Shown in pieces: positions 17,697-30,780 of a stretch of DNA of 64,000 nt. This stretch comes from Chloroflexota bacterium (GTDB lineage: Bacteria; Chloroflexota; Anaerolineae; B4-G1; DUEL01), in contig JADBJJ010000022.1 of the NCBI GenBank assembly GCA_014874475.1, positions 44,573-108,572 on the forward strand, written 5' to 3'. A program made the position numbers and the translations under genes. Each line of letters opens with the position of its first letter. Position 1 is the stretch's first letter. The notes under the pieces are model-generated. The model was not told where the DNA came from, searched no databases, and saw nothing but the letters and a program-made list of their open reading frames with translations.

Positions 17697-19150
<1,454 letters not shown>

Positions 19151-19497
19151 CGGCGGCCGCCGGCGTGCTGCGCCTCACCCTCCCGCCTCTCTCCGGGGCG
19201 GTGCTGGCGCGCGGCCCATAGCGCCGGACCTGCGCGGGCTGACACCTGGGCTGTGCCGGGTCAAAGCGGCGCAAGATTTGGCCGTTGAACAAACCTTAGA
19301 CTCCCTCTGCCCCGAAAAAGAGGCGAGCGTCACTGTCCGCTCTACTCCTCGTCCAGCGGCGCGCCGCTGCCGGATGGTGTGCAACCGGGCGATTCCCGCG
19401 GCGCCATCGCTCGCGCCACCTCTCGTCCAGCGGCGCGCCGCCGTTAACCCACCCCCGCCCCTCTTCACATTCCCCCTCCCGTTTCACCCTTCACTCT

Positions 19498-21776: not shown

Positions 21777-23105
<1,329 letters not shown>

Positions 23106-23193
23106 GGTTCGCTACCGTCATCCCGGTGTTTATCCCGGTGTTGCCGGCAATGGCACCATTCGCCTCTTAACGGTTGGGCTTGAGGAAATCCTT

Positions 23194-24603
23194 GTGCGCA
23201 CCAAAATGGTCTGTACCTTAGGGCCGGTCTCGCGGGACCCCGAGGTCATCCGGGGGCTCCTGCGAGCCGGGATGACCGTCGCCCGCATCAACTTCTCCCA
23301 CGGCGACCTGGAGACCCATGCCCGCACCATCGCCACCGCGCGGCAGGTGGCCCAGGAGGAGGGCCGCCTGCTGGCTATTATGGCCGACCTCCAGGGCCCG
23401 AAACTGCGGCTGGGGGAACTGCCCGCCGACGGCGTCGTCCTGCGGGCGGGGGAGGAAATCATCCTCTCCCCGGCACCCTTCGCCCCAGGCCGCCTGCCCG
23501 TGCCCCATCCAGAGGTCCTGGCTGACCTGCGGGAAGGCCAGCGAATTCTCTTAGACGATGGCCAACTGGAACTGCGGGTGGAGCAGGCCGATGGCGGAAC
23601 CGTCCGCTGCCGGGTCGTCTTCGGTGGACGGCTGACTTCCCATAAGGGCCTGAATCTTCCCGGCGCTTCGCTGCGTATCTCCGCGCTCACCGAAAAGGAC
23701 CGCCGGGATGCCCGCTTCGCGGTGGAGCAGGGTGTGGACCTGATCGCGCTCTCTTTCATCCGTTCCGCGCAGGACGTGCTGGAACTGCGAGGACTGCTAC
23801 GGGAACGGGGCGCGGCCGATCTGCCCATCGTCGCCAAGATAGAGAAGGTAGAGGCAATGGAGGCATTTGACGAGATTCTGGAGGTCACCGATGCGGTGAT
23901 GGTGGCGCGCGGCGACCTGGGGGTGGAGACTTCGGCCGAAGAGGTGCCGTTCTACCAGAAGTGTATCATCCGGGCCTGCAACCGGGTCGGTAAGCCCGTC
24001 ATCACCGCCACCCAGATGCTCCAGACGATGATAGAAAACCCCACTCCCACCCGCGCCGAGGCGTCCGACGTGGCGAACGCTGTCCTGGACGGCACCGACG
24101 CGGTGATGCTCTCCGGCGAGACGGCGATCGGAGCCTATCCGGTAGAGGCGGCACGGACGATGGCCCGTATCTGTGCCGGCGCCGAGGCCCACCTTTCCCC
24201 TGAGCGCCTTCTACATGAACTGGAATGTCCGAAAGGGTCGGTCACCGGGGCCATCAGCCGGGCGACGGTGGAGATCGCCGCCGAGGTGGGCGCGCAGGCC
24301 ATTCTTACCGCCACTATGTCCGGCACCACGGCCCGCATGGTCGCTCGCTACCGCCCCTCAGTGCCGATCATCGCTGCCACTCCCAACCTCCGCACCCAGA
24401 TGCGGCTGGCGCTGGTCTGGGGAGTGACGCCGATGCTGGTCCCGACGTTCACCAACACCGACGAGATGGTCGTCTTGATGATCCAGGCCGCCCTCCAGAC
24501 CGGCCTGGTCCAGAACGGGGACCGGGTGGTGCTGACCGCCGGCGTCCCCTTCGGCGGTGAAGGCCGCACCAATATGCTGCAGGTCCGCGTTGTGGGAGAA
24601 TAA
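23194..24603 (+). CDS. pyk: Pyruvate kinase
   Basis: RTKMVCTLGP, RINFSHG, DLQGPK, MVARGDLG, ATQML and MLSGETA motifs. Confidence 0.98.
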   Translation: MRTKMVCTLGPVSRDPEVIRGLLRAGMTVARINFSHGDLETHARTIATARQVAQEEGRLLAIMADLQGPKLRLGELPADGVVLRAGEEIILSPAPFAPGRLPVPHPEVLADLREGQRILLDDGQLELRVEQADGGTVRCRVVFGGRLTSHKGLNLPGASLRISALTEKDRRDARFAVEQGVDLIALSFIRSAQDVLELRGLLRERGAADLPIVAKIEKVEAMEAFDEILEVTDAVMVARGDLGVETSAEEVPFYQKCIIRACNRVGKPVITATQMLQTMIENPTPTRAEASDVANAVLDGTDAVMLSGETAIGAYPVEAARTMARICAGAEAHLSPERLLHELECPKGSVTGAISRATVEIAAEVGAQAILTATMSGTTARMVARYRPSVPIIAATPNLRTQMRLALVWGVTPMLVPTFTNTDEMVVLMIQAALQTGLVQNGDRVVLTAGVPFGGEGRTNMLQVRVVGE

Positions 24604-24608
24604 ACTGA

Positions 24609-24640
24609 CGGGCCAGGCATTTTCAACAGTGCCTGGCCCG
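24609..24640. other. Intergenic hairpin between pyk and the translin gene
   Basis: CGGGCCAGGCA / TGCCTGGCCCG 11-bp stem with no U tract. Confidence 0.55.
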
Positions 24641-24654
24641 TTCGGAGAAATGAA

Positions 24655-25281
24655 ATGGAGCGACTGGAAGCCATCGGCGAGGAGATCCGGGCCGACCTCT
24701 CCGCCCGGGACGCGGCGCGGGACGAGGCCCTCCGCCGCTCCCGCGAACTGGTCCGCCTCTGCGCTACCGCCATCCGCGCCGCCCATCGGGAAGAGTGGGA
24801 TGCCGCCAGGGAGTTGCTGGTTCAGGCCAGCGATGTCGCCGCCGGGATGGTGGAGGCGGTGGCCGCGTACCCGGACCTCCTCTACGCCGGCTACGTCCAG
24901 GATAGCCTGAAGGAACTGACGGAGGCCCATCTGGTACTGGCGATGGTAACCGGCGCGCCACTCCCTGAGCCTGCCGCGCTGAGGGTTTCCTCTGCGGTCT
25001 ACCTCAACGGTCTCTGCGAGGCCGCCTCCGAACTGCGGCGGCGGTGCCTGGACCTGTTGCGGCGGGACCGGCTGCCGGAGGCGGAGCGGTTGCTTTCGGT
25101 GATGGAGGCTGTCTACGACCTGCTGATGACCTACGACTTTCCCGATGGGGTGACCGGCGGCCTGCGCCACCGGGTGGACCAGTTGCGGGGGGTGCTGGAG
25201 CGGACTCGCGGGGACGTGACTCAGGCTCTCCTGCAGGGCCGATTGCTGGCTGCCCTGCAACGGGGGATGGAACACGGGTAG
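24655..25281 (+). CDS. Translin/TRAX-family (archaeal C3PO-like) protein
   Basis: All-helical; AR..AL..SRE.VR....AI...H, QD..KE..E, YLNGL.E..SELRR and GLR.RVD..R..LE motifs. Confidence 0.85.
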   Translation: MERLEAIGEEIRADLSARDAARDEALRRSRELVRLCATAIRAAHREEWDAARELLVQASDVAAGMVEAVAAYPDLLYAGYVQDSLKELTEAHLVLAMVTGAPLPEPAALRVSSAVYLNGLCEAASELRRRCLDLLRRDRLPEAERLLSVMEAVYDLLMTYDFPDGVTGGLRHRVDQLRGVLERTRGDVTQALLQGRLLAALQRGMEHG

Positions 25282-25405
25282 ACACGGATGAGCGCCGATG
25301 AACAGGGAAAATTCTACCGTGAAGGGCGTCTTTGTCCTTTAGGGTTTTTCGGATGACCTCTAAAGTCTGTGGAAATCCGTGTTGCCCGCATTCCTCCGGG
25401 GCCTT

Positions 25406-25660
25406 ATGACGATGGAAGAGATCACCGACCGGATGATTCGGGCCAGTGAGATCGGGCAGTATCTGTTCTGCGCCCGCGCCTGGTGGCTGGGCTCGGTGGA
25501 GGGGGTGCCTTCTGCCCACCGAGAGGAGATGGAGGCCGGGCAGAACCTCCACCGGCGGCACGGACGAGGGGTGCGCGCGGCGGTCATCCTTTTCCGCCTG
25601 GCCTGGGCGCTGCTGGCGCTGGCCCTTTTCGTGGGCATCCTGGCCCTCCTGGGCCGCTGA
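25406..25660 (+). CDS. N-terminal part of a Cas4-like nuclease with a C-terminal TM helix
   Basis: IRASEIGQYLFCARAWW (first Fe-S Cys), G...H motif, then a hydrophobic run of more than 20 residues. Confidence 0.75.
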   Translation: MTMEEITDRMIRASEIGQYLFCARAWWLGSVEGVPSAHREEMEAGQNLHRRHGRGVRAAVILFRLAWALLALALFVGILALLGR

Positions 25661-25675
25661 CCGGAACGGTTTTTC

Positions 25676-26185
25676 GTGACTGCGCTGATTCTTCTCCTGT
25701 TTCTGGTCGGCCTGGCTCTGCTCTGGCTAGCGCGGCGGCTGCGTACCCGCTCTGGCTTGCCCTCCGGGCGAGTGGTCGCCGCCGATGTGGGGACATGGCG
25801 GCGGCTGGACCGGCCCCTCTTCTCCCGTCGTTACGGAGTGACTGGCCGCCCGGACTACATCGTGGCTGACGGCGCAGACCTGATCCCCGTGGAGGTCAAA
25901 TCCGCCCGCGCGCCAGCCCGCCCCTACACCTCTCATATCCTCCAATTGGCCGCCTACTGCCTCCTGATCGCTGAGACCTCCGGCCGACGCCCTCCTTACG
26001 GCATCCTCCGTTACGCCGACCGTACACTCCAGATCCCGTACACGCGGGAACTGGAGGAGCAACTGCTGGATGTTTTGGAGGAGATGCGGAGGGACCTGGC
26101 CGCCGGGAATGCGTCGCGCCGTCATCAGGACCCGCGCCGCTGCGCCGCTTGCGGGTACCGGGATGTCTGCGACGAGGCTTTGTGA
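25676..26185 (+). CDS. Cas4-like PD-(D/E)xK nuclease, C-terminal part, with an N-terminal TM helix
   Basis: TM start; GRPDY, PVEVKS, QLAAYC and C-x2-C-x5-C motifs. Confidence 0.85.
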   Translation: MTALILLLFLVGLALLWLARRLRTRSGLPSGRVVAADVGTWRRLDRPLFSRRYGVTGRPDYIVADGADLIPVEVKSARAPARPYTSHILQLAAYCLLIAETSGRRPPYGILRYADRTLQIPYTRELEEQLLDVLEEMRRDLAAGNASRRHQDPRRCAACGYRDVCDEAL

Positions 26186-26215
26186 CGCAGAACAACGGCA
26201 AGCCCTCGTCCTGCG

Positions 26216-27061
26216 TCAGAGGGATCGCCACCAGGCAACGATGCGGGGACCGATGGGCCGGAAGCCGAACCGCTTGTAGAGGCGCTGCGAGGTGATGTTG
26301 TCCTCTTGGGTGTTCAGGGTCACTTCTTTCGTTCCCCGCTCCCACAATTGCGAAAGCACCGCCCTCAGCAGGAAACTGCCCACTCCCTGCCGCTGGAACG
26401 GCGGAGCCACGGCCAGGCGACCAATGTGGGCGCCGTGGTCGGCGGGGCGGGCCTCTATGTAGCCGATGAGGAGACCGTCCCGTTCCGCCACCAGGAAACA
26501 GAGGGCTTCCTGCCGGATGCGCTCCAGTGTGGCCGCGCTGAACCACCACGGCGGCGGGAAGGCATCGTGGTCCAGGCGCGCCAGAGCGGGGCTGTCTTCC
26601 GCCCTGGCTGGGCGGACGGTACAGGGCACGCTCGGCGGCATCGGAGGCAGGGAGCGGTTGTCCTTCAACAGGGTGACCAGGCGAGTGAGGGGAGCGAACC
26701 CCCGGGCGCGCAGGGCCTCACCCATCCAGCCACCCACATCGGTCCAGGCCAGGGCACAAGCACCCAGCGCGCGCAGGGGGGGTTCCAGCGGGGGGAGGGT
26801 CGCATCCAGCCAGAGGCCTGCCGGGATTTCGGGGGCCAGTACGCCGAGGCGAACCCAGGCCACCGGGCTATCGTCGGGCAGGGCCAGCAGCGCGCCGACC
26901 GGGTGGCCGTCGGTCAGAGTCAGCAGGAATGTCTCCGCGCCCAGGTAGTTTTCCCACCCCCAGGAGCGGACGCACGGGCGGGCACTCCGGGCCAGCAGCC
27001 GCCGGATGATGGCCTCATCGGCCGGGACGGCAGGGCGAACTTCCAGATGGCCGCGGACCAT
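26216..27061 (-). CDS. GNAT family N-acetyltransferase
   Basis: LAVAPPFQRQGVG and LNTQEDN...LYKRFGF motifs. Confidence 0.9.
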   Translation of the reverse strand: MVRGHLEVRPAVPADEAIIRRLLARSARPCVRSWGWENYLGAETFLLTLTDGHPVGALLALPDDSPVAWVRLGVLAPEIPAGLWLDATLPPLEPPLRALGACALAWTDVGGWMGEALRARGFAPLTRLVTLLKDNRSLPPMPPSVPCTVRPARAEDSPALARLDHDAFPPPWWFSAATLERIRQEALCFLVAERDGLLIGYIEARPADHGAHIGRLAVAPPFQRQGVGSFLLRAVLSQLWERGTKEVTLNTQEDNITSQRLYKRFGFRPIGPRIVAWWRSL

Positions 27062-27131
27062 AGACTACGAACTCCAGAGAAGGTTGAGTTTTGCGGCAGC
27101 GGCCGGAGAACACCGCCGCAAGATTCGCTCT

Positions 27132-28877
27132 TTATGTCCTGCGCCGGCGGTTCTCCGTCAGCATCCGCCAGACTTCCTGAATGCCGACTTTCGTCAATTC
27201 GCCCACGTTAAAGGGCAACCGCCCCACGGGGACATCCAGTTCCGTTTTGTCGCAGACGGTAGAGGTGTTGGCGCGGTCAATCTGCGGCTTCAGGCGCAGC
27301 ATCTCCTGCTCCACTTCTTCCGGCGAAGCGGTCGCCAGCAGGCGGTCTATGTGGGCCATCAGGGCAGTGGCTTGCCGGATGCGCTCTTCCGTCTCCGCCG
27401 CCTTCGCTGGGGAGATGATGCCGTAGCGGGCTTTCAGCGCGTTCAGCCGCCGACCCGCCTCGTAGGTGGTGGCGGCGATCGTATCCCGGTCCATCCAGAC
27501 CGTCTCGTAGGAGAGGATATGCTTCCAGGTGGGCGCCAGCAGAGCCCGCCGGTGGTCCTCCAGTGTCCGACAGAAGAGGCGGTAGCCGAACTGGTCTGGG
27601 TTCTCAAAGGCCGGGCTCCCAGGGTCCAGGAACGGGGCCAGGGGAGCGATGAAGGGGACCAGTCGCCGGTCGCCGTCCAGTTTCCTCAGCAGTTCGTCGC
27701 AGTAGTCCGCCGTCTCCAGGGCCGAGGCGGCGGTCTGTTTGGGCAGGCCAATCATAAAGAACAGGTCAAAGCGACGGCAGCCGACATCCAGGCAGTTGCG
27801 CACTGTCTCCTCAATCCCTTCGTTGCTGTAGCCCTTGCCCAGGGCCTGGCGGACGATCGGATCGTGGGAGTCGGGGGAGAATTCCACGATAAAGTCGGGC
27901 AGCGCCTCAGCCAGTTCTTCGGCATAGTCCCGGGGGACGGGCCAGAAGAACTCCAGCATAAAGGGGCCGGAGACGCCCCGGACGGCGCGCAGGAAACGGC
28001 GGGCGTAGTCCATTCCTGCCAGGCGGAGTTCGCCCAGAATGAAGATGGGGCCGCGGCTCAGCCGTCGGGCATCCCGCACGTCTTGGGCCAGTTCCTCCGG
28101 ATCCCGGAAGGCCGGGCGCTCCCGTCCGGACATACGGAGATGTCCTTCGGCACACCCTCCGCAGACGGAGCAGTGCTGGGTGCAACCGCGCACCGTCAGC
28201 GTGGCCATGATGGGGTAATCCAGCCAGTGGGCGAAGGGCGTGCAGGAGATCAGGTCCCGGTCCCGGATGACGGAGCGGACCATCTGCAGGAACCCCGGGC
28301 GGATGTGGCTCAGGTCAGTGGGGATGTAGGTCTGGGGGTTGATGTGAATCTGGCCCCGGGCGTCCTTCCAGGTCAGGTTGGGGACGTCGGTCGGCTCGCG
28401 GCGGTCGCGCAGACACTCCAGCAACATCCGCAGCGGCTCTTCGGTGGAATCGCCGCGCAGGACGTAATCCACCTGCGGGTAGTTGATGAGTTCTTCGTGG
28501 TAGTAGGTGGCGGAGAAGCCGCCGAAGATGATGGGGGTGCCGGGGTGATGCTTCCGGACGATGCGGGCAACCTCCAGCGCGCCCTGGGCATGGGGGAGCC
28601 AGTGCAGGTCTATGCCGAAGGCGCCGGATGGGTGGCGGGCGATGAACCGCTCCGCGTCAAAACGGTCGGAGCGGACCATCCGCACCGCGAGGTTGACGAT
28701 GCGGGTGCGGAAGCCGTGCCGCTCCAGATAGTCGCAGAGGGCGGCGAAGCCGATGGGGTACATGTCGTAGATGGGTGTGGATGGGACGACGTCGGAGATG
28801 GGGCCCCAGAGAGTGGCTCGCCGCCGGAAGTCGTAGAGACTGGGAGAGTGAAGGAAGGTGAGATCGGGTATGCTCAT
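27132..28877 (-). CDS. B12-binding radical SAM protein (TIGR04190-like)
   Basis: N-terminal cobalamin-binding domain (GIDLHW, IIFGG, VLRGD) and RGCTQHCSVC. Confidence 0.88.
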   Translation of the reverse strand: MSIPDLTFLHSPSLYDFRRRATLWGPISDVVPSTPIYDMYPIGFAALCDYLERHGFRTRIVNLAVRMVRSDRFDAERFIARHPSGAFGIDLHWLPHAQGALEVARIVRKHHPGTPIIFGGFSATYYHEELINYPQVDYVLRGDSTEEPLRMLLECLRDRREPTDVPNLTWKDARGQIHINPQTYIPTDLSHIRPGFLQMVRSVIRDRDLISCTPFAHWLDYPIMATLTVRGCTQHCSVCGGCAEGHLRMSGRERPAFRDPEELAQDVRDARRLSRGPIFILGELRLAGMDYARRFLRAVRGVSGPFMLEFFWPVPRDYAEELAEALPDFIVEFSPDSHDPIVRQALGKGYSNEGIEETVRNCLDVGCRRFDLFFMIGLPKQTAASALETADYCDELLRKLDGDRRLVPFIAPLAPFLDPGSPAFENPDQFGYRLFCRTLEDHRRALLAPTWKHILSYETVWMDRDTIAATTYEAGRRLNALKARYGIISPAKAAETEERIRQATALMAHIDRLLATASPEEVEQEMLRLKPQIDRANTSTVCDKTELDVPVGRLPFNVGELTKVGIQEVWRMLTENRRRRT

Positions 28878-29469: not shown

Positions 29470-30780
29470 ATGGCTGAAGAGAGAGTGCCGGTCTTCAATC
29501 TGAAGGCGGTGGTCCGGGAGACCAGGGTGGCGGCCTCTACGCTACGGGTATGGGAGCGCCGCTATGGACTCCCCCATCCCCAGCGCGCGCCATCTGGGCA
29601 CCGTCTTTACTCCCGGCGGGATATAGAGACGGTTCGGTGGCTATCCCAGCGCCTGTCCGAGGGGATGACCATCGGGCAGGCCGTCGCTCTCTGGCGTTCC
29701 CTGGAGGAGGCCGGGAAGGACCCGCTGTTAGAGTACATTCAAAGGCCGGGCGGGCGGCCCGTGGTGGAGCAGGAAGCACTGGGACACTGGCGGGATGCTT
29801 GGGTGGCTGCGTGCCTGGCTTTTGACGAGGCTGCTGCCGACGCGGCCTTTGGGCAGGCCCTGGCCGTATTGCCACCGGAGGTGGCCTGCACAGAAGTCCT
29901 GCGGGAAGGGCTGGCCTGGATCGGTGAGGCCTGGTATCGGGGCGAAGCGACGGTCTATCAGGAGCACTTTGCATCGCACCTGGCTGCGCGCCGGGTCCAG
30001 ACGCTCCTGATGGTGACCGCTCCACCATCTCGGCCCCATCCCGTCCTGATTGTCTGCCCGCCCGGAGAGCAACACGCCTTTGGGTCCCTGCTGCTGACGT
30101 ATCTGCTCCGGCGGGATGGCTGGAACGTCATCTATCTGGGGGCGGACCTGCCGGTGGAGGAGACGGTAGCCGCTGTGCGCCGGGCCGCTCCCCGCTGGGT
30201 CATCGCCAGTGCGTACCATCTGCCCCCCGTCGCCGGTATCCAGGCCCTGGGCCTGCTCCTGCGGGAGATGGAGGTCCCCCTGGCTTTCGGCGGGCGGGTC
30301 TTCAACCAGGTCCCGGCGCTCCGTTCCCGGATCACCGGCTACTTTCTGGGCGAGCGGATGGAGGAGACGCCGGCCCGGTTAGAGGAATGGGCCGCCTGGC
30401 CATTGTCAATCCCGCCCATCCCCACCATCCCCGAGGAGTATCACCGCGCCCAGACTCTCTATCTGGAGCAGGAATGGCCGATCCGGGCCCGCGTCCTATC
30501 CCTGCTATCCGTCCACCCCATCACCCGGAATCTCCCCGGCTGGTTGCCGGAGTACACCTTCTCCCACATTCGCTCCGCGCTGGCGCTGGGGGATATGGCG
30601 CTGGCAGACACCTATGTGGACTGGCTGTGGGGTCTGCGGGACGGTTTTTCTCTGCCGGAGGGGTGGGTGGCGCCGTTCCTGGAGGCGTACTGGAAGGGGA
30701 TAAAGCGGTATCTGGGCGAGGACGGTGCGCCGCTGTTGGAGTGGCTGGACCGACAGATGAATAATGACCGAGGGGCCTGA
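29470..30780 (+). CDS. carH: CarH/LitR-type MerR regulator with an adenosyl-B12 photosensor domain and a C-terminal extension
   Basis: TLRVWERRYG and GHRLYS; W-x9-EH (WYRGEATVYQEH); GEQH..G; YLG motif. Confidence 0.88.
   Translation: MAEERVPVFNLKAVVRETRVAASTLRVWERRYGLPHPQRAPSGHRLYSRRDIETVRWLSQRLSEGMTIGQAVALWRSLEEAGKDPLLEYIQRPGGRPVVEQEALGHWRDAWVAACLAFDEAAADAAFGQALAVLPPEVACTEVLREGLAWIGEAWYRGEATVYQEHFASHLAARRVQTLLMVTAPPSRPHPVLIVCPPGEQHAFGSLLLTYLLRRDGWNVIYLGADLPVEETVAAVRRAAPRWVIASAYHLPPVAGIQALGLLLREMEVPLAFGGRVFNQVPALRSRITGYFLGERMEETPARLEEWAAWPLSIPPIPTIPEEYHRAQTLYLEQEWPIRARVLSLLSVHPITRNLPGWLPEYTFSHIRSALALGDMALADTYVDWLWGLRDGFSLPEGWVAPFLEAYWKGIKRYLGEDGAPLLEWLDRQMNNDRGA

What the first reader, a model, noticed from the sequence alone, without database searches (positions are those of the whole stretch)
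25406..26185. Cas4-like Fe-S nuclease split into two membrane-anchored halves, outside any CRISPR locus
Seen: ORF1 carries the Cas4 N-terminal elements (ASEIGQYLFCARAWW with the first cluster Cys, then G...H) and ends in a TM helix. ORF2 begins with a TM helix and carries the RecB-type motifs (GRPDY, EVK, QLAAY) plus C-x2-C-x5-C. The ORFs are in the same frame, separated by one TGA and five codons, and there is no strong RBS before the GTG. No cas1, cas2 or array is in the window. Known: Cas4/AddB nucleases bind a 4Fe-4S cluster with one N-terminal and three C-terminal Cys and are normally soluble. Inference: the cluster would be assembled across two TM-tethered subunits, or in a readthrough product with a TM hairpin. 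Either gives a membrane-surface nuclease, possibly acting on incoming DNA.
Basis: partly seen in the sequence, partly recalled or inferred. Interest (0 to 1): 0.85.

Follow-up and report, generated by a model that had tools for sequence, protein, structure and literature searches.

The report
Split membrane-anchored Cas4-like nuclease
Two small adjacent genes encode the two halves of a Cas4-type iron-sulfur nuclease, each with its own membrane anchor, and this split is conserved across many Chloroflexota, so it is a real two-subunit enzyme of unknown cellular role and not a broken gene.

Summary
ORF1 (25406-25660) carries the Cas4 N-terminal helix with the first cluster Cys and the motif-I His, and ends in a TM helix. 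ORF2 (25676-26185) starts with a TM helix and carries D, ExK, QxxxY and CxxCx5C.

The split is neither an error nor a readthrough. In 45 adjacent N/C pairs from relatives the frame offset is +2 in 33, 0 in 8 and +1 in 4. Twenty-four pairs overlap, and the stops are TGA, TAG or TAA.

In 401 genomes of the phylum, all 84 with an N-half also have a C-half. A co-fold supports binding: ipSAE 0.88, best control 0.29.

Single-chain relatives with a 2-10 TM helical insert at the same site exist, mostly in Thermoplasmatota. The window's stop falls in the outer loop of that hairpin.

The locus is far from the genome's cas1 genes, which have their own soluble Cas4. A TRAX-like nuclease gene sits directly upstream in 22 of 25 assessable loci.

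Function is unknown. My best guess is a vertically inherited, membrane-tethered cytoplasmic DNA nuclease. It is a new variant of solo-Cas4.

The parts
24655..25281 (+). TRAX/C3PO-like (translin superfamily) nuclease gene, 208 aa; conserved upstream neighbour of the N-half
   Evidence: Sequence match to PDB 3zc1/3zc0 AfTRAX at E 4.8e-22 and to NEQ131 at 6e-6. NCBIfam NF011160 at 4.3e-74, 248.5 bits, below its cut-off of 291. Pfam Translin is weak at E 0.0063. Directly upstream of the N-half in 22 of 25 assessable loci.
25320..25351 (+). Terminator-like hairpin plus T-run in the 124-nt gap between the TRAX-like gene and ORF1 (weak)
   Evidence: One search found 2 terminator-like sites in 23000-27200, against 1.6 expected from shuffles. 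This is a consensus match only.
25406..25660 (+). ORF1, the N-half subunit (84 aa): cytoplasmic Cas4 N-terminal helix and motif I, followed by a C-terminal TM anchor
   Evidence: The family of 76-97 aa proteins has 211 members at E<=1e-3 among 213 candidates. Median dN/dS is 0.29.
25469..25471 (+). Cys22 codon (TGC): the first, N-terminal [4Fe-4S] ligand
   Evidence: Invariant in 119 N-halves and in 14 fused and split sequences.
25538..25552 (+). G45...H49, RecB motif I. The His is inferred to be the metal ligand equivalent to His62 of SSO0001.
   Evidence: G45 and H49 are invariant. Passages in PMC12501428 and PMC13621843 state that His62, Asp99 and Glu113 bind Mn in SSO0001. The equivalence is by HMM alignment and is an inference.
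25583..25654 (+). TM helix 1 (about aa 60-83), ending one residue before the stop
   Evidence: Best 19-mer Kyte-Doolittle mean is 2.59 at aa 65-83. All 120 of 120 N-halves have a C-terminal hydrophobic 19-mer of KD >=1.9. Mean K+R is 3.88 in the 15 aa before the helix and 0.54 after it.
25658..25675 (+). TGA stop of ORF1 plus the 15-nt spacer; corresponds to the outer loop of the TM hairpin in fused relatives
25676..26185 (+). ORF2, the C-half subunit (169 aa): N-terminal TM anchor followed by the PD-(D/E)XK core
   Evidence: AlphaFold2 model with pLDDT 89.8. Best PDB fold matches are Cas4 8d3q/8d3l at E 2e-6. Median dN/dS is 0.18.
25676..25753 (+). TM helix 2 (aa 1-26), including the conserved GLxLLWLARR end and an Arg-rich cytoplasmic flank
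   Evidence: Helix at residues 2-26 in the model. 119 of 120 C-halves have a hydrophobic 19-mer starting at aa 1-6. L8 G12 L15 L16 W17 L18 A19 R20 R23 are >=90% conserved. Mean K+R is 4.68 in the 15 aa after the helix and 0.02 before it.
25853..25855 (+). Asp60 (GRPDY), RecB motif II
   Evidence: Invariant.
25892..25900 (+). Glu73-Val-Lys75, RecB motif III (ExK)
   Evidence: Invariant.
25943..25957 (+). Gln90...Tyr94 (QLAAY), the QhxxY motif
   Evidence: Q90 is invariant and Y94 is >=90% conserved in 120 C-halves. Both are invariant in the 14-sequence alignment.
26141..26170 (+). Cys156-x2-Cys159-x5-Cys165: the three C-terminal [4Fe-4S] ligands
   Evidence: Invariant. Residues 155 and 159-165 lie in the confident interface with N-half residues 19-29.

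Best explanation
ORF1 and ORF2 are two real, co-expressed genes. Their products reassemble one Cas4-type PD-(D/E)XK nuclease on the cytoplasmic face of the cell membrane.

The N-half is tail-anchored. Its cytoplasmic 58 or so residues supply the first [4Fe-4S] cysteine (C22) and the motif-I histidine (H49). The C-half is anchored by an N-terminal helix (N-out, C-in). It supplies Asp60, Glu73-x-Lys75, QxxxY and the other three cysteines.

Neither half should therefore bind the cluster or the catalytic metal alone. The active enzyme would be an obligate heterodimer whose two TM helices correspond to the helical hairpin of single-chain relatives. The gene fission lies exactly in the extracytoplasmic turn of that hairpin. 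Close or overlapping stop and start codons couple the translation of the two subunits.

Shown: the sequence anatomy, conservation, co-occurrence, coupling, fold and a supporting co-fold. Inferred: cluster binding, cytoplasmic topology, nuclease activity and the substrate.

The enzyme is not part of CRISPR adaptation. It most likely acts as a vertically inherited, housekeeping-type nuclease on DNA (or DNA/RNA) ends next to the membrane. In this order it is co-encoded with a TRAX/C3PO-like nuclease.
For: Anatomy and family matches:
- The motifs and HMM matches divide cleanly between the two ORFs.
- The C-half model has pLDDT 89.8, and its best PDB folds are Cas4 8d3q/8d3l, 7mi5, ACE1 and SSO0001.

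Real genes:
- C-half-like proteins: 4553 at E<=1e-3 among 5018 candidates; the top 120 are all 163-190 aa.
- N-half-like proteins: 211 at E<=1e-3 among 213 candidates; 119 of the 120 listed are 76-97 aa and one is 139 aa.
- Median dN/dS is 0.29 over 117 N-half pairs and 0.18 over 110 C-half pairs.

Not readthrough:
- In 45 adjacent pairs the frame offset is +2 in 33, 0 in 8 and +1 in 4.
- 24 pairs overlap, 17 have a 0-30 nt gap, 3 have 31-120 nt and 1 has more than 120 nt.
- The N-half stops are TGA 31, TAG 7 and TAA 7.
- L004, at 91% identity, differs by a 1-nt spacer indel.

Co-occurrence:
- In 401 genomes of the phylum, 115 have a C-half (E<=1e-15) and 84 have an N-half (E<=1e-6).
- All 84 are among the 115; none of the 286 C-negative genomes has an N-half.
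- In two examples from the remaining 31, a divergent, longer N-half ORF sits upstream (L113 and L114).

TM helices and topology:
- 120 of 120 N-halves and 119 of 120 C-halves have the anchor.
- K+R is enriched on the sides next to the soluble domains: 3.88 against 0.54, and 4.68 against 0.02.

Assembly:
- The co-fold of the C-half, 4Fe-4S, Mn and the N-half scored ipSAE 0.88 (runs 0.88, 0.91, 0.80). The best of 3 controls scored 0.29.
- That mark was reached by 58 of 80 solved complexes and 2 of 110 mismatched pairs.
- The runs agree in >=97% of contacts, and the partner pLDDT is >=77.
- The interface is N-half residues 3-38 against C-half residues 49, 54-57, 85-97, 130-150, 155, 159-165 and 167.

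Hairpin homology:
- Fused relatives align end to end, with the same invariant residues.
- The model of one of them (pLDDT 93.6) has one helix running from motif I through TM1 (33-86), a turn, and a return helix (90-127).
- Its best fold match is Cas4 8d3l_I (TM-score 0.68 normalised to the target).

Not CRISPR-linked, not mobile:
- cas1 lies on other contigs, with a soluble Cas4 about 200 aa long next to one of them.
- Neighbours are enolase, pyruvate kinase, GNAT and radical SAM genes.
- No phage record matches, and only 8 distant plasmid matches were found, none covering the TM helix.
Against: - There is no experimental datum of any kind: no cluster, activity, localisation or expression data.
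- The co-fold pass may be memory of solved single-chain Cas4 folds. The job also differed from the calibration, because it used my own alignments and carried ligands.
- The TM helices are not in the confident interface, so hairpin pairing is inferred only from fused relatives.
- The tools returned no coordinates, so convergence of the four Cys was not measured.
- The N-half alone is below the curated cut-offs of Pfam and TIGR00372.
- In some genomes the halves lie on different contigs or have a gene between them: G007, G010, G026, G028, G019, G386, G161, G258, G399. This fits two subunits, but it shows that coupling is not obligatory.
- The conserved neighbour differs between lineages: TRAX-like here; site-2 protease in f24, f40, f61 and f70; NAD kinase in f4; none consistent in archaea. 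Context therefore gives no single functional partner, and the 'housekeeping' reading is soft.
Confidence: 0.72

Rival explanations
1. The pair is one gene. The in-frame TGA is read through or recoded, giving a single 259-aa protein with a TM hairpin like the archaeal fused forms.
For: In the window the ORFs are in frame with only 5 codons between them. Three other genomes (G018, G023, G031) also have one in-frame stop. Natural single-chain forms exist.
Against: Only 8 of 45 pairs are in frame. 24 of 45 overlap out of frame, and the stops are TGA, TAG and TAA. A same-genus relative differs by a 1-nt indel in the spacer. Among proteins of 142-454 aa, only one had an N-half-like region, and it is not a fused Cas4.
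Confidence: 0.03
2. The stop is a sequencing or assembly error, or a recent nonsense mutation in a decaying gene.
For: Only one assembly, the possible source, covers the junction in the runs I could lay.
Against: The same split is found in many genomes and metagenomes, with identities down to about 35-50%. Both halves are under purifying selection, and all catalytic and cluster residues are invariant.
Confidence: 0.01
3. The C-half works alone as a membrane-anchored nuclease, and the N-half is an unrelated or merely regulatory small membrane protein.
For: Passages in two papers report Cas4 enzymes that stay active without the Fe-S cluster: LinCas4 (abstract highlights of PMC8610317 in the listing) and M. 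mazei solo-Cas4 (as cited in PMC13621843). The halves are unlinked in some genomes.
Against: The N-half carries the invariant first Cys and the motif-I G...H, and it matches positions 2-47 of the Cas4 models. Co-occurrence is strict at 84 of 84. The co-fold supports binding at 0.88 against 0.29. In fused relatives the same segment is part of one chain.
Confidence: 0.05
4. Same heterodimer, but its role is innate defence: it degrades phage or plasmid DNA as it enters at the membrane.
For: The nuclease head is held close to the inner membrane face. Cas4-family enzymes work in defence, for example with pAgo (ACE1; listing of PMC12094033). Hudaiberdiev et al. suggest uncharacterised defence or repair roles for solo-Cas4 (PMC5704561).
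Against: The neighbours are housekeeping genes and no defence genes are nearby. PADLOC matches only generic Cas4 and DruK models. The gene is single-copy and present in whole families (f4 24/24, f24 24/25). No phage matches and no close plasmid matches were found. dN/dS is ordinary.
Confidence: 0.18
5. The membrane tether is a regulatory latch: a site-2 protease cuts the type-II-oriented TM helix of the N-half and releases or destroys the nuclease on a signal.
For: A Peptidase_M50+PDZ gene lies directly upstream on the same strand in 18 of 18 loci examined from families f24, f40, f61 and f70. The N-half has N-in/C-out orientation with an outer tail of about 0-5 residues. That such proteins are typical S2P substrates is recalled knowledge, not tested here.
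Against: Those 18 loci come from related families, so this may be one inherited synteny. In the window's genome the M50 genes are on other contigs. No cleavage evidence exists. The C-half would stay anchored.
Confidence: 0.08

Closest known systems
CRISPR-associated Cas4 (Pfam PF01930/DUF83, TIGR00372; structures 8D3L type I-C, 7MI4 Cas4-Cas1, 4IC1 SSO0001, 4R5Q Pcal_0546)
   Same: The PD-(D/E)XK core has motif I His, motif II Asp, ExK and QhxxY. It has one N-terminal and three C-terminal Cys (CxxCx5C). These structures are the best sequence and fold matches.
   Different: It is encoded as two polypeptides. Each has a TM helix, inserted between motif I and the first beta-strand. It is not next to cas1, cas2 or an array, and the genome keeps a separate soluble Cas4 beside cas1.
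Solo-Cas4 of Chloroflexi (Hudaiberdiev et al. 2017, PMC5704561; passages read)
   Same: A Cas4-family gene outside cas loci, described as 'present and monophyletic in ... many Chloroflexi' and mostly vertically inherited. My distribution data agree.
   Different: The paper's main text contains none of the words transmembrane, split or translin, and 'membrane' occurs once in an unrelated gene name. Its supplementary trees could not be opened, so I cannot show that their clade is this one.
Single-chain TM-hairpin Cas4-like proteins of Thermoplasmatota (e.g. P0296, P0347, P0359; P0306/P0327 with about 4 TM; P0330/P0355 with about 8-10 TM)
   Same: They have the same invariant residues, the insert sits at the same site, and the TM2 'WL' motif is kept. 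They align end to end with the window's ORF1+ORF2.
   Different: They are one chain, and the hairpin is sometimes multiplied in tandem. No TRAX-like gene was found by tblastn in the 80 loci examined. They are archaeal.
Fe-S nuclease domains of AddB/AdnAB, Dna2 and MGME1-type PD-(D/E)XK nucleases
   Same: They share the fold and, except MGME1, a 4-Cys cluster that staples the N-terminal helix to the C-terminal end (fold hits; the cluster role is recalled knowledge).
   Different: They are soluble and part of large helicase-nuclease machines. The match is much weaker than to Cas4.
Archaeal TRAX/C3PO (AfTRAX 3ZC0/3ZC1, NEQ131 5JR9): the neighbour gene only
   Same: The 208-aa upstream protein matches AfTRAX at E 4.8e-22 over aa 9-192. 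Translin-superfamily genes are reported in bacteria only for Chloroflexi (passage in PMC5100593).
   Different: I found no published link between TRAX-like genes and Cas4. No listed paper holds 'Cas4' together with TRAX, translin or C3PO terms.

Membership tests
Cas4 (PF01930 / TIGR00372) | Profile match above the curated cut-off | tested here: met
   C-half: TIGR00372 69.7 bits (cut-off 65) and PF01930 42.4 bits (cut-off 22.7). Read-through with X: PF01930 55.9 bits. The N-half alone is below the cut-offs (17.0 and 24.7 bits) but aligns to model positions 2-47.
Cas4 (PF01930 / TIGR00372) | RecB motifs: motif I His, motif II Asp, motif III ExK, QhxxY | tested here: met
   H49 is on the N-half. 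D60, E73/K75 and Q90/Y94 are on the C-half. All are invariant or >=90% conserved in 119 and 120 homologues and in 14 fused and split sequences.
Cas4 (PF01930 / TIGR00372) | Four Cys for a [4Fe-4S] cluster (1 N-terminal + CxxCx5C) | tested here: met
   C22 (N-half) and C156, C159, C165 (C-half) are invariant. They lie on two chains. Actual cluster binding is not testable here.
Cas4 (PF01930 / TIGR00372) | Cas4/RecB-like fold | tested here: met
   Top Foldseek PDB hits for the C-half model are 8d3q_J and 8d3l (E 2e-6, TM-score 0.54 normalised to the query). The fused relative's top hit is 8d3l_I (TM-score 0.68 normalised to the target).
Cas4 (PF01930 / TIGR00372) | Single soluble polypeptide of about 160-220 aa | tested here: not met
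   There are two ORFs of 84 and 169 aa, each with a TM helix.
CRISPR adaptation module (CAS-Cas4) | Adjacent to cas1/cas2 or a CRISPR array | tested here: not met
   The cas1 matches are on contigs C32 and C11, not on the window's contig C16. The window has no array. cas2 was not searched separately.
Solo-Cas4 (sensu Hudaiberdiev 2017) | Cas4-family gene outside characterised contexts, mainly vertical inheritance | tested here: met
   The neighbours are housekeeping genes. Presence is family-wide and single-copy. Identity with the published Chloroflexi clade could not be checked because the supplements are closed.
Recoded / readthrough gene | In-frame stop conserved in position and frame among orthologs | tested here: not met
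   Only 8 of 45 pairs are in frame and 24 of 45 overlap.
Metal-dependent 5'-3' ssDNA exonuclease/endonuclease activity of Cas4 | Measured nuclease activity and Mn/Mg dependence | not testable with these tools
   Only the conserved catalytic residues can be shown.
Translin/TRAX (neighbour gene 24655-25281) | Sequence match to a solved TRAX and to the family profile | tested here: inconclusive
   AfTRAX matches at E 4.8e-22. However, Pfam Translin gives only E 0.0063, below its cut-off, and NF011160 scores 248.5 bits against a cut-off of 291.

The most novel reading that the evidence does not exclude
The split is functional, not just tolerated. Because the [4Fe-4S] cluster and the catalytic metal site are each built from both chains, cluster insertion or loss (iron, oxygen or redox state) would assemble or dissolve the nuclease at the membrane.

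The tail-anchored N-half, a type-II single-span protein with almost no outer tail, would be a direct substrate for the site-2 protease that precedes it in other Chloroflexota.

The system would then be a signal-gated, membrane-latched nuclease. Together with the co-encoded TRAX-like nuclease it might control DNA or RNA turnover at the membrane. That would be a mode of regulating a Cas4-family enzyme not described before.
Probability: 0.12. Interest if true: 0.85.

Novelty: new variant of a known kind. Interest (0 to 1): 0.62.

Why it matters
Cas4-family nucleases are treated as soluble enzymes, and the role of solo-Cas4 is an open question (PMC5704561 and PMC12501428, passages read).

This finding shows a large, conserved branch in which the enzyme is built into the membrane. 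In many Chloroflexota it is an obligate two-gene enzyme. In Thermoplasmatota it is a single chain with 2-10 TM helices.

This offers three things:
- A natural split-protein system in which an Fe-S cluster and an active site bridge two chains.
- A concrete place, the inner membrane face, to look for the solo-Cas4 substrate.
- Two testable partners: the TRAX-like nuclease and the site-2 protease.

It also corrects annotation. The 76-97 aa N-halves are mostly labelled 'hypothetical protein', and the C-halves are labelled as complete 'Cas4'.

Tried and rejected
- Reads at the stop: no RNA holder was listed. Of four DNA runs laid, only X1 covers 25620-25747. X1 may be the source of this DNA; it is identical at depth about 252. 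X2, X4 and X5 have no contig over the junction. There is therefore no independent read check; the comparative data replace it.
- Fused forms among close relatives: searching the N-half region among proteins of 142-454 aa gave one hit. P0121 is 162 aa on a 593-bp contig, with an unrelated tail. Rejected as a fused Cas4.
- The search for related loci with the broad alignment A5 failed because it had no conserved stretch. I repeated it with the narrower A6.
- TRAX-like and other window neighbours were not found by tblastn in the 80 archaeal loci. Clustering the archaeal neighbours gave no universal partner; the best was a small membrane ORF in 34 of 80 loci.
- The tree of the nuclease core (128 rows, 136 columns, quick method) is poorly resolved: 68 of 125 branches are open. 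It cannot give the direction (fission or fusion) or the number of events. It shows only that 16 archaeal-type fused forms form one group (support 92) and that other fused forms are scattered.
- Rfam found no match in 24000-27000. The promoter scan found none on the + strand.
- Phage collection: no match. Plasmids: 8 distant matches only.
- PADLOC: only generic Cas4 and DruK models matched.
- Literature: five searches found no description of a TM-containing or split Cas4, or of a TRAX-Cas4 link.
- Supplements of PMC5704561, which hold the Cas4 trees and neighbourhoods, could not be opened and may already show this clade.
Full report
**1. What is in the window**

ORF1 runs from ATG 25406 to TGA 25658-25660. 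ORF2 runs from GTG 25676 to TGA 26183-26185. They lie in the same frame and are separated by the TGA and five codons.

ORF1 (84 aa) has RASEIGQYLFC22ARAWWLG and G45..H49, followed by a hydrophobic C-terminus. ORF2 (169 aa) begins with a hydrophobic helix and then has GRPD60Y, E73VK75, Q90LAAY94 and C156AAC159GYRDVC165.

The profile matches divide between the two ORFs:
- ORF1 aa 12-57 match TIGR00372 (cas4) positions 2-47, at 24.7 bits, below the cut-off.
- ORF2 aa 47-165 match positions 60-178, at 69.7 bits against a cut-off of 65.
- Pfam Cas_Cas4 behaves the same way.

About 12 model positions are replaced by about 95 residues that hold two TM helices and the gene boundary.

**2. Neither an error nor a readthrough**

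A six-frame search of 41 genomes of the same order found the family in most of them. Usually it appeared as two adjacent matches in different frames. Only G000, G018, G023 and G031 gave one match with a single in-frame stop, and the stop was TGA or TAG.

I then measured 45 adjacent N/C pairs from the order and from other families of the phylum:
- The frame offset is +2 in 33 pairs, 0 in 8 and +1 in 4.
- 24 pairs overlap (typically ATGA), 17 have a gap of 0-30 nt, 3 have 31-120 nt and 1 has 606 nt with another gene in between.
- The N-half stops are TGA 31, TAG 7 and TAA 7.

A same-genus relative with a 91% identical C-half differs from the window by a single-base indel in the spacer, which changes the frame relation. 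In some genomes the halves lie on different contigs. A conserved in-frame stop, the hallmark of recoding, is therefore absent.

Both ORFs evolve under purifying selection by the NG86 method. Median dN/dS is 0.29 for the N-half (117 of 120 pairs usable) and 0.18 for the C-half (110 of 120). Many pairs have dS near 1, so the values are rough.

**3. Two protein families, each with an anchor**

The C-half query found 4553 proteins at E<=1e-3 among 5018 candidates. The best 120 are all 163-190 aa, with identity down to 64%. Where named, they are called Cas4 from Anaerolineae, Thermoflexales, Thermoflexia or Chloroflexota MAGs.

The N-half query found 211 proteins at E<=1e-3 among 213 candidates. 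Of the 120 listed, 119 are 76-97 aa and one is 139 aa. They are mostly called hypothetical.

The anchors are conserved:
- All 120 listed N-halves have a strongly hydrophobic 19-mer (KD >=1.9), and in 115 of them it ends 0-5 residues before the C-terminus.
- 119 of 120 C-halves have one starting at residue 1-6.

Lys+Arg is concentrated on the sides that join the soluble domains. The mean is 3.88 in the 15 residues before TM1 against 0.54 after it, and 4.68 after TM2 against 0.02 before it. By the positive-inside rule (established knowledge), both soluble parts are cytoplasmic and only a few residues face outward. This also fits the need for cytoplasmic Fe-S assembly, which is an inference.

TM2 is not a bland anchor. 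L8, G12, L15, L16, W17, L18, A19, R20 and R23 are each >=90% conserved.

**4. The halves complement each other**

Invariant positions in 119 N-halves include C22, G45, H49 and H52. Invariant positions in 120 C-halves include D60, E73, K75, Q90, C156, C159 and C165.

In SSO0001 the Mn ion is held by His62, Asp99, Glu113 and a backbone carbonyl (passages in PMC12501428 and PMC13621843). By alignment, the His comes from the N-half here and the acidic residues from the C-half. The cluster would take one Cys from the N-half and three from the C-half. This equivalence is an inference.

I co-folded the C-half, 4Fe-4S, Mn and the N-half, each protein with its own alignment:
- ipSAE was 0.88 (runs 0.88, 0.91 and 0.80), against 0.29 for the best of three controls.
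- The mark was reached by 58 of 80 solved complexes and 2 of 110 mismatched pairs.
- The runs agree in >=97% of contacts, and the partner pLDDT is >=77.
- The confident interface joins N-half residues 3-38 to C-half residues 49, 54-57, 85-97, 130-150, 155, 159-165 and 167. The Cys22 helix therefore lies against the CxxCx5C segment.

Three caveats apply. The pass may come from the model's memory of single-chain Cas4 structures. My job differed from the calibration in using its own alignments and carrying ligands. The TM helices are not in the confident interface.

The C-half alone models well (pLDDT 89.8, helix 2-26). Its best PDB fold matches are Cas4 of type I-C (8d3q/8d3l, E 2e-6), Cas4-Cas1 (7mi5), ACE1, MGME1, SSO0001 and Dna2.

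**5. Single-chain relatives show what was split**

A profile of four in-frame read-throughs, with X at the stop, was scored against 1.84 billion cluster representatives. It gave 2740 hits at E<=1e-3.

Among the best 150, by my motif and hydropathy script:
- 126 are C-half-only by the strict motif; 109 of them have one predicted TM, and a few of the longer ones are fused forms that the motif missed.
- 16 carry the N-terminal Cys motif and the nuclease core in one chain. With a looser motif the count is 21.

The fused forms are 243-318 aa with two TM helices, about 320-357 aa with about four, and 559-596 aa with about 8-11 hydropathy peaks. They align end to end with ORF1+ORF2. The first Cys, G..H, GxPD, ExK, QxxxY and CxxCx5C are invariant, and the window's stop falls in the loop between TM1 and TM2.

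An AlphaFold2 model of one fused form (P0296, pLDDT 93.6, pTM 0.86) shows a single helix from motif I through TM1 (residues 33-86), a three-residue turn, and a return helix (90-127) into the first beta-strand. Its best fold match is Cas4 8d3l_I. The nuclease head thus sits on a helical stalk-and-hairpin.

Of the 80 loci kept, nearly all are Thermoplasmata or Thermoplasmatota (DHVE2, Aciduliprofundum, Methanomassiliicoccales). One is labelled Aenigmatarchaeota and one Proteobacteria.

A quick tree of the core is too poorly resolved to say whether fission or fusion came first, or how often either occurred.

**6. Distribution and co-occurrence**

I searched 401 genomes sampled across the window's phylum. 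By the names that sources give to near-identical proteins, the phylum is Chloroflexota.
- The C-half profile matched 115 genomes at E<=1e-15, nearly always once per genome. Whole families are positive (f4 24/24, f24 24/25).
- The N-half profile matched 84 genomes at E<=1e-6. All 84 are among the 115, and none of the 286 C-negative genomes matched.
- Most of the other 31 belong to family f34. In the two f34 loci I opened that showed it (L113, L114), a longer and divergent ORF with FTASEV..YCPLAWW and a C-terminal TM helix sits just upstream. These are split too.

Related genomes are not independent, so I give no statistic. Several positive genomes are single-contig assemblies, so cultured carriers probably exist.

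**7. Context**

The window's neighbours are enolase, pyruvate kinase, a GNAT acetyltransferase, a B12-binding radical SAM enzyme, a cupin and a MerR/B12-binding regulator. No defence genes are nearby. PADLOC matches only generic Cas4 and DruK models.

The genome's two cas1 genes are on other contigs. One has a soluble, TM-less Cas4 of about 200 aa next to it. The phage collection gave no match, and plasmids gave only 8 distant ones.

The gene directly upstream (24655-25281) is a TRAX/C3PO-like protein. It matches AfTRAX at E 4.8e-22.
- It precedes the N-half in 22 of 25 assessable loci. This includes 3 of the 5 loci where the N-half is unlinked from the C-half.
- By coordinates it is also adjacent in families f6, f16 and f25, but not in f4, f24, f40 or f61.
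- TRAX-like genes are more widespread than the nuclease: 221 of 401 genomes, a tally that includes the unpublished G185 and G267.

In families f24, f40, f61 and f70 the upstream gene is instead a Peptidase_M50+PDZ site-2 protease. This holds in 18 of 18 loci, on the same strand, with gaps of a few to about 70 nt. In f4 a NAD kinase gene flanks the C-half in 4 of 6 loci. In the window's genome the M50 genes are elsewhere.

**8. How it most likely works**

Shown here:
- Two coupled genes.
- Two conserved anchors.
- Catalytic and cluster residues that complement each other.
- A Cas4 fold.
- A supporting co-fold.
- Homology of the two anchors to a helical hairpin in single-chain relatives.

Inferred:
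- The two subunits insert side by side.
- Their cytoplasmic parts close around a [4Fe-4S] cluster and a Mn/Mg site.
- The heterodimer cuts DNA ends, and perhaps RNA, close to the inner membrane face.

The role is open. Family-wide single-copy presence, ordinary selection, housekeeping neighbours and absence from mobile elements fit a core function best, such as repair or nucleic-acid turnover at the membrane. In this order that function may be shared with the TRAX-like nuclease. Defence against entering DNA is the main rival. A protease-controlled latch is a bolder one.

**9. Novelty**

Solo-Cas4 that is monophyletic in 'many Chloroflexi' is in print (PMC5704561; abstract and passages read).

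Five full-text searches found no paper describing a Cas4 with TM helices, a two-gene Cas4, or a TRAX-Cas4 link.

I therefore rate this as a new variant of a known kind. It is real, widespread and cleanly testable, but its function is unknown.

Noticed in passing
window 24655-25281 (+): A TRAX/C3PO-like (translin superfamily) gene lies directly upstream of the N-half. It stays with the N-half even where the two halves are unlinked (L104, L105, L106). Its catalytic residues were not checked.
   Followed up: partly
L117:1047-2225, L119:1202-2299, L120:813-1991 and L121-L135: In four other families of the phylum a Peptidase_M50+PDZ site-2 protease gene immediately precedes the N-half on the same strand (18 of 18 loci). 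This suggests an operon of an intramembrane protease with a tail-anchored protein.
   Followed up: partly
P0306, P0327, P0331, P0374 (about 330-357 aa); P0330, P0351, P0355, P0366 (559-596 aa): Archaeal single-chain relatives carry the TM hairpin multiplied in tandem (about 4 and about 8-10 helices), with a repeated '...WL..A..FLY' motif. The numbers are even, so both Cas4 parts stay on one side of the membrane.
   Followed up: partly
L113:1298-1747 and L114 (family f34): A divergent N-half variant of about 120-150 aa has an extra acidic helical segment between the Cys helix and the TM anchor. The N-half profile missed it at E<=1e-6.
   Followed up: partly
G000:C11:87833-88693 and 89499-89903 (L022): A canonical soluble Cas4 of about 200 aa lies near one of the genome's two cas1 genes, so the organism has both a CAS-Cas4 and the split solo form.
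   Followed up: partly
L015:880-1485 (G019): One relative has an extra gene of about 600 nt inserted between the N-half and the C-half. Similar gaps of 490-800 nt occur in G059, G370, G233 and G055.
   Followed up: no
L029:3138-3923 and 20 other archaeal loci: A conserved ORF of about 260 aa lies upstream on the same strand as the fused Cas4-like gene in 21 of 80 Thermoplasmatota loci. A small membrane ORF lies downstream on the opposite strand in 34 of 80. Neither was identified.
   Followed up: no
window 25320-25351 (+): A terminator-like hairpin with a T-run lies between the TRAX-like gene and ORF1. In more distant relatives this gap shrinks to 5-40 nt.
   Followed up: no
window 19080-19221: Two tandem 71-nt copies (90% identical) lie next to a second pair of 41-nt repeats at 19327-19441. 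Their nature is unknown.
   Followed up: no
window 27132-28877 (-) and 29470-30780 (+): A B12-binding radical SAM enzyme and a MerR regulator with two B12-binding domains (CarH-like architecture) flank a cupin gene.
   Followed up: no
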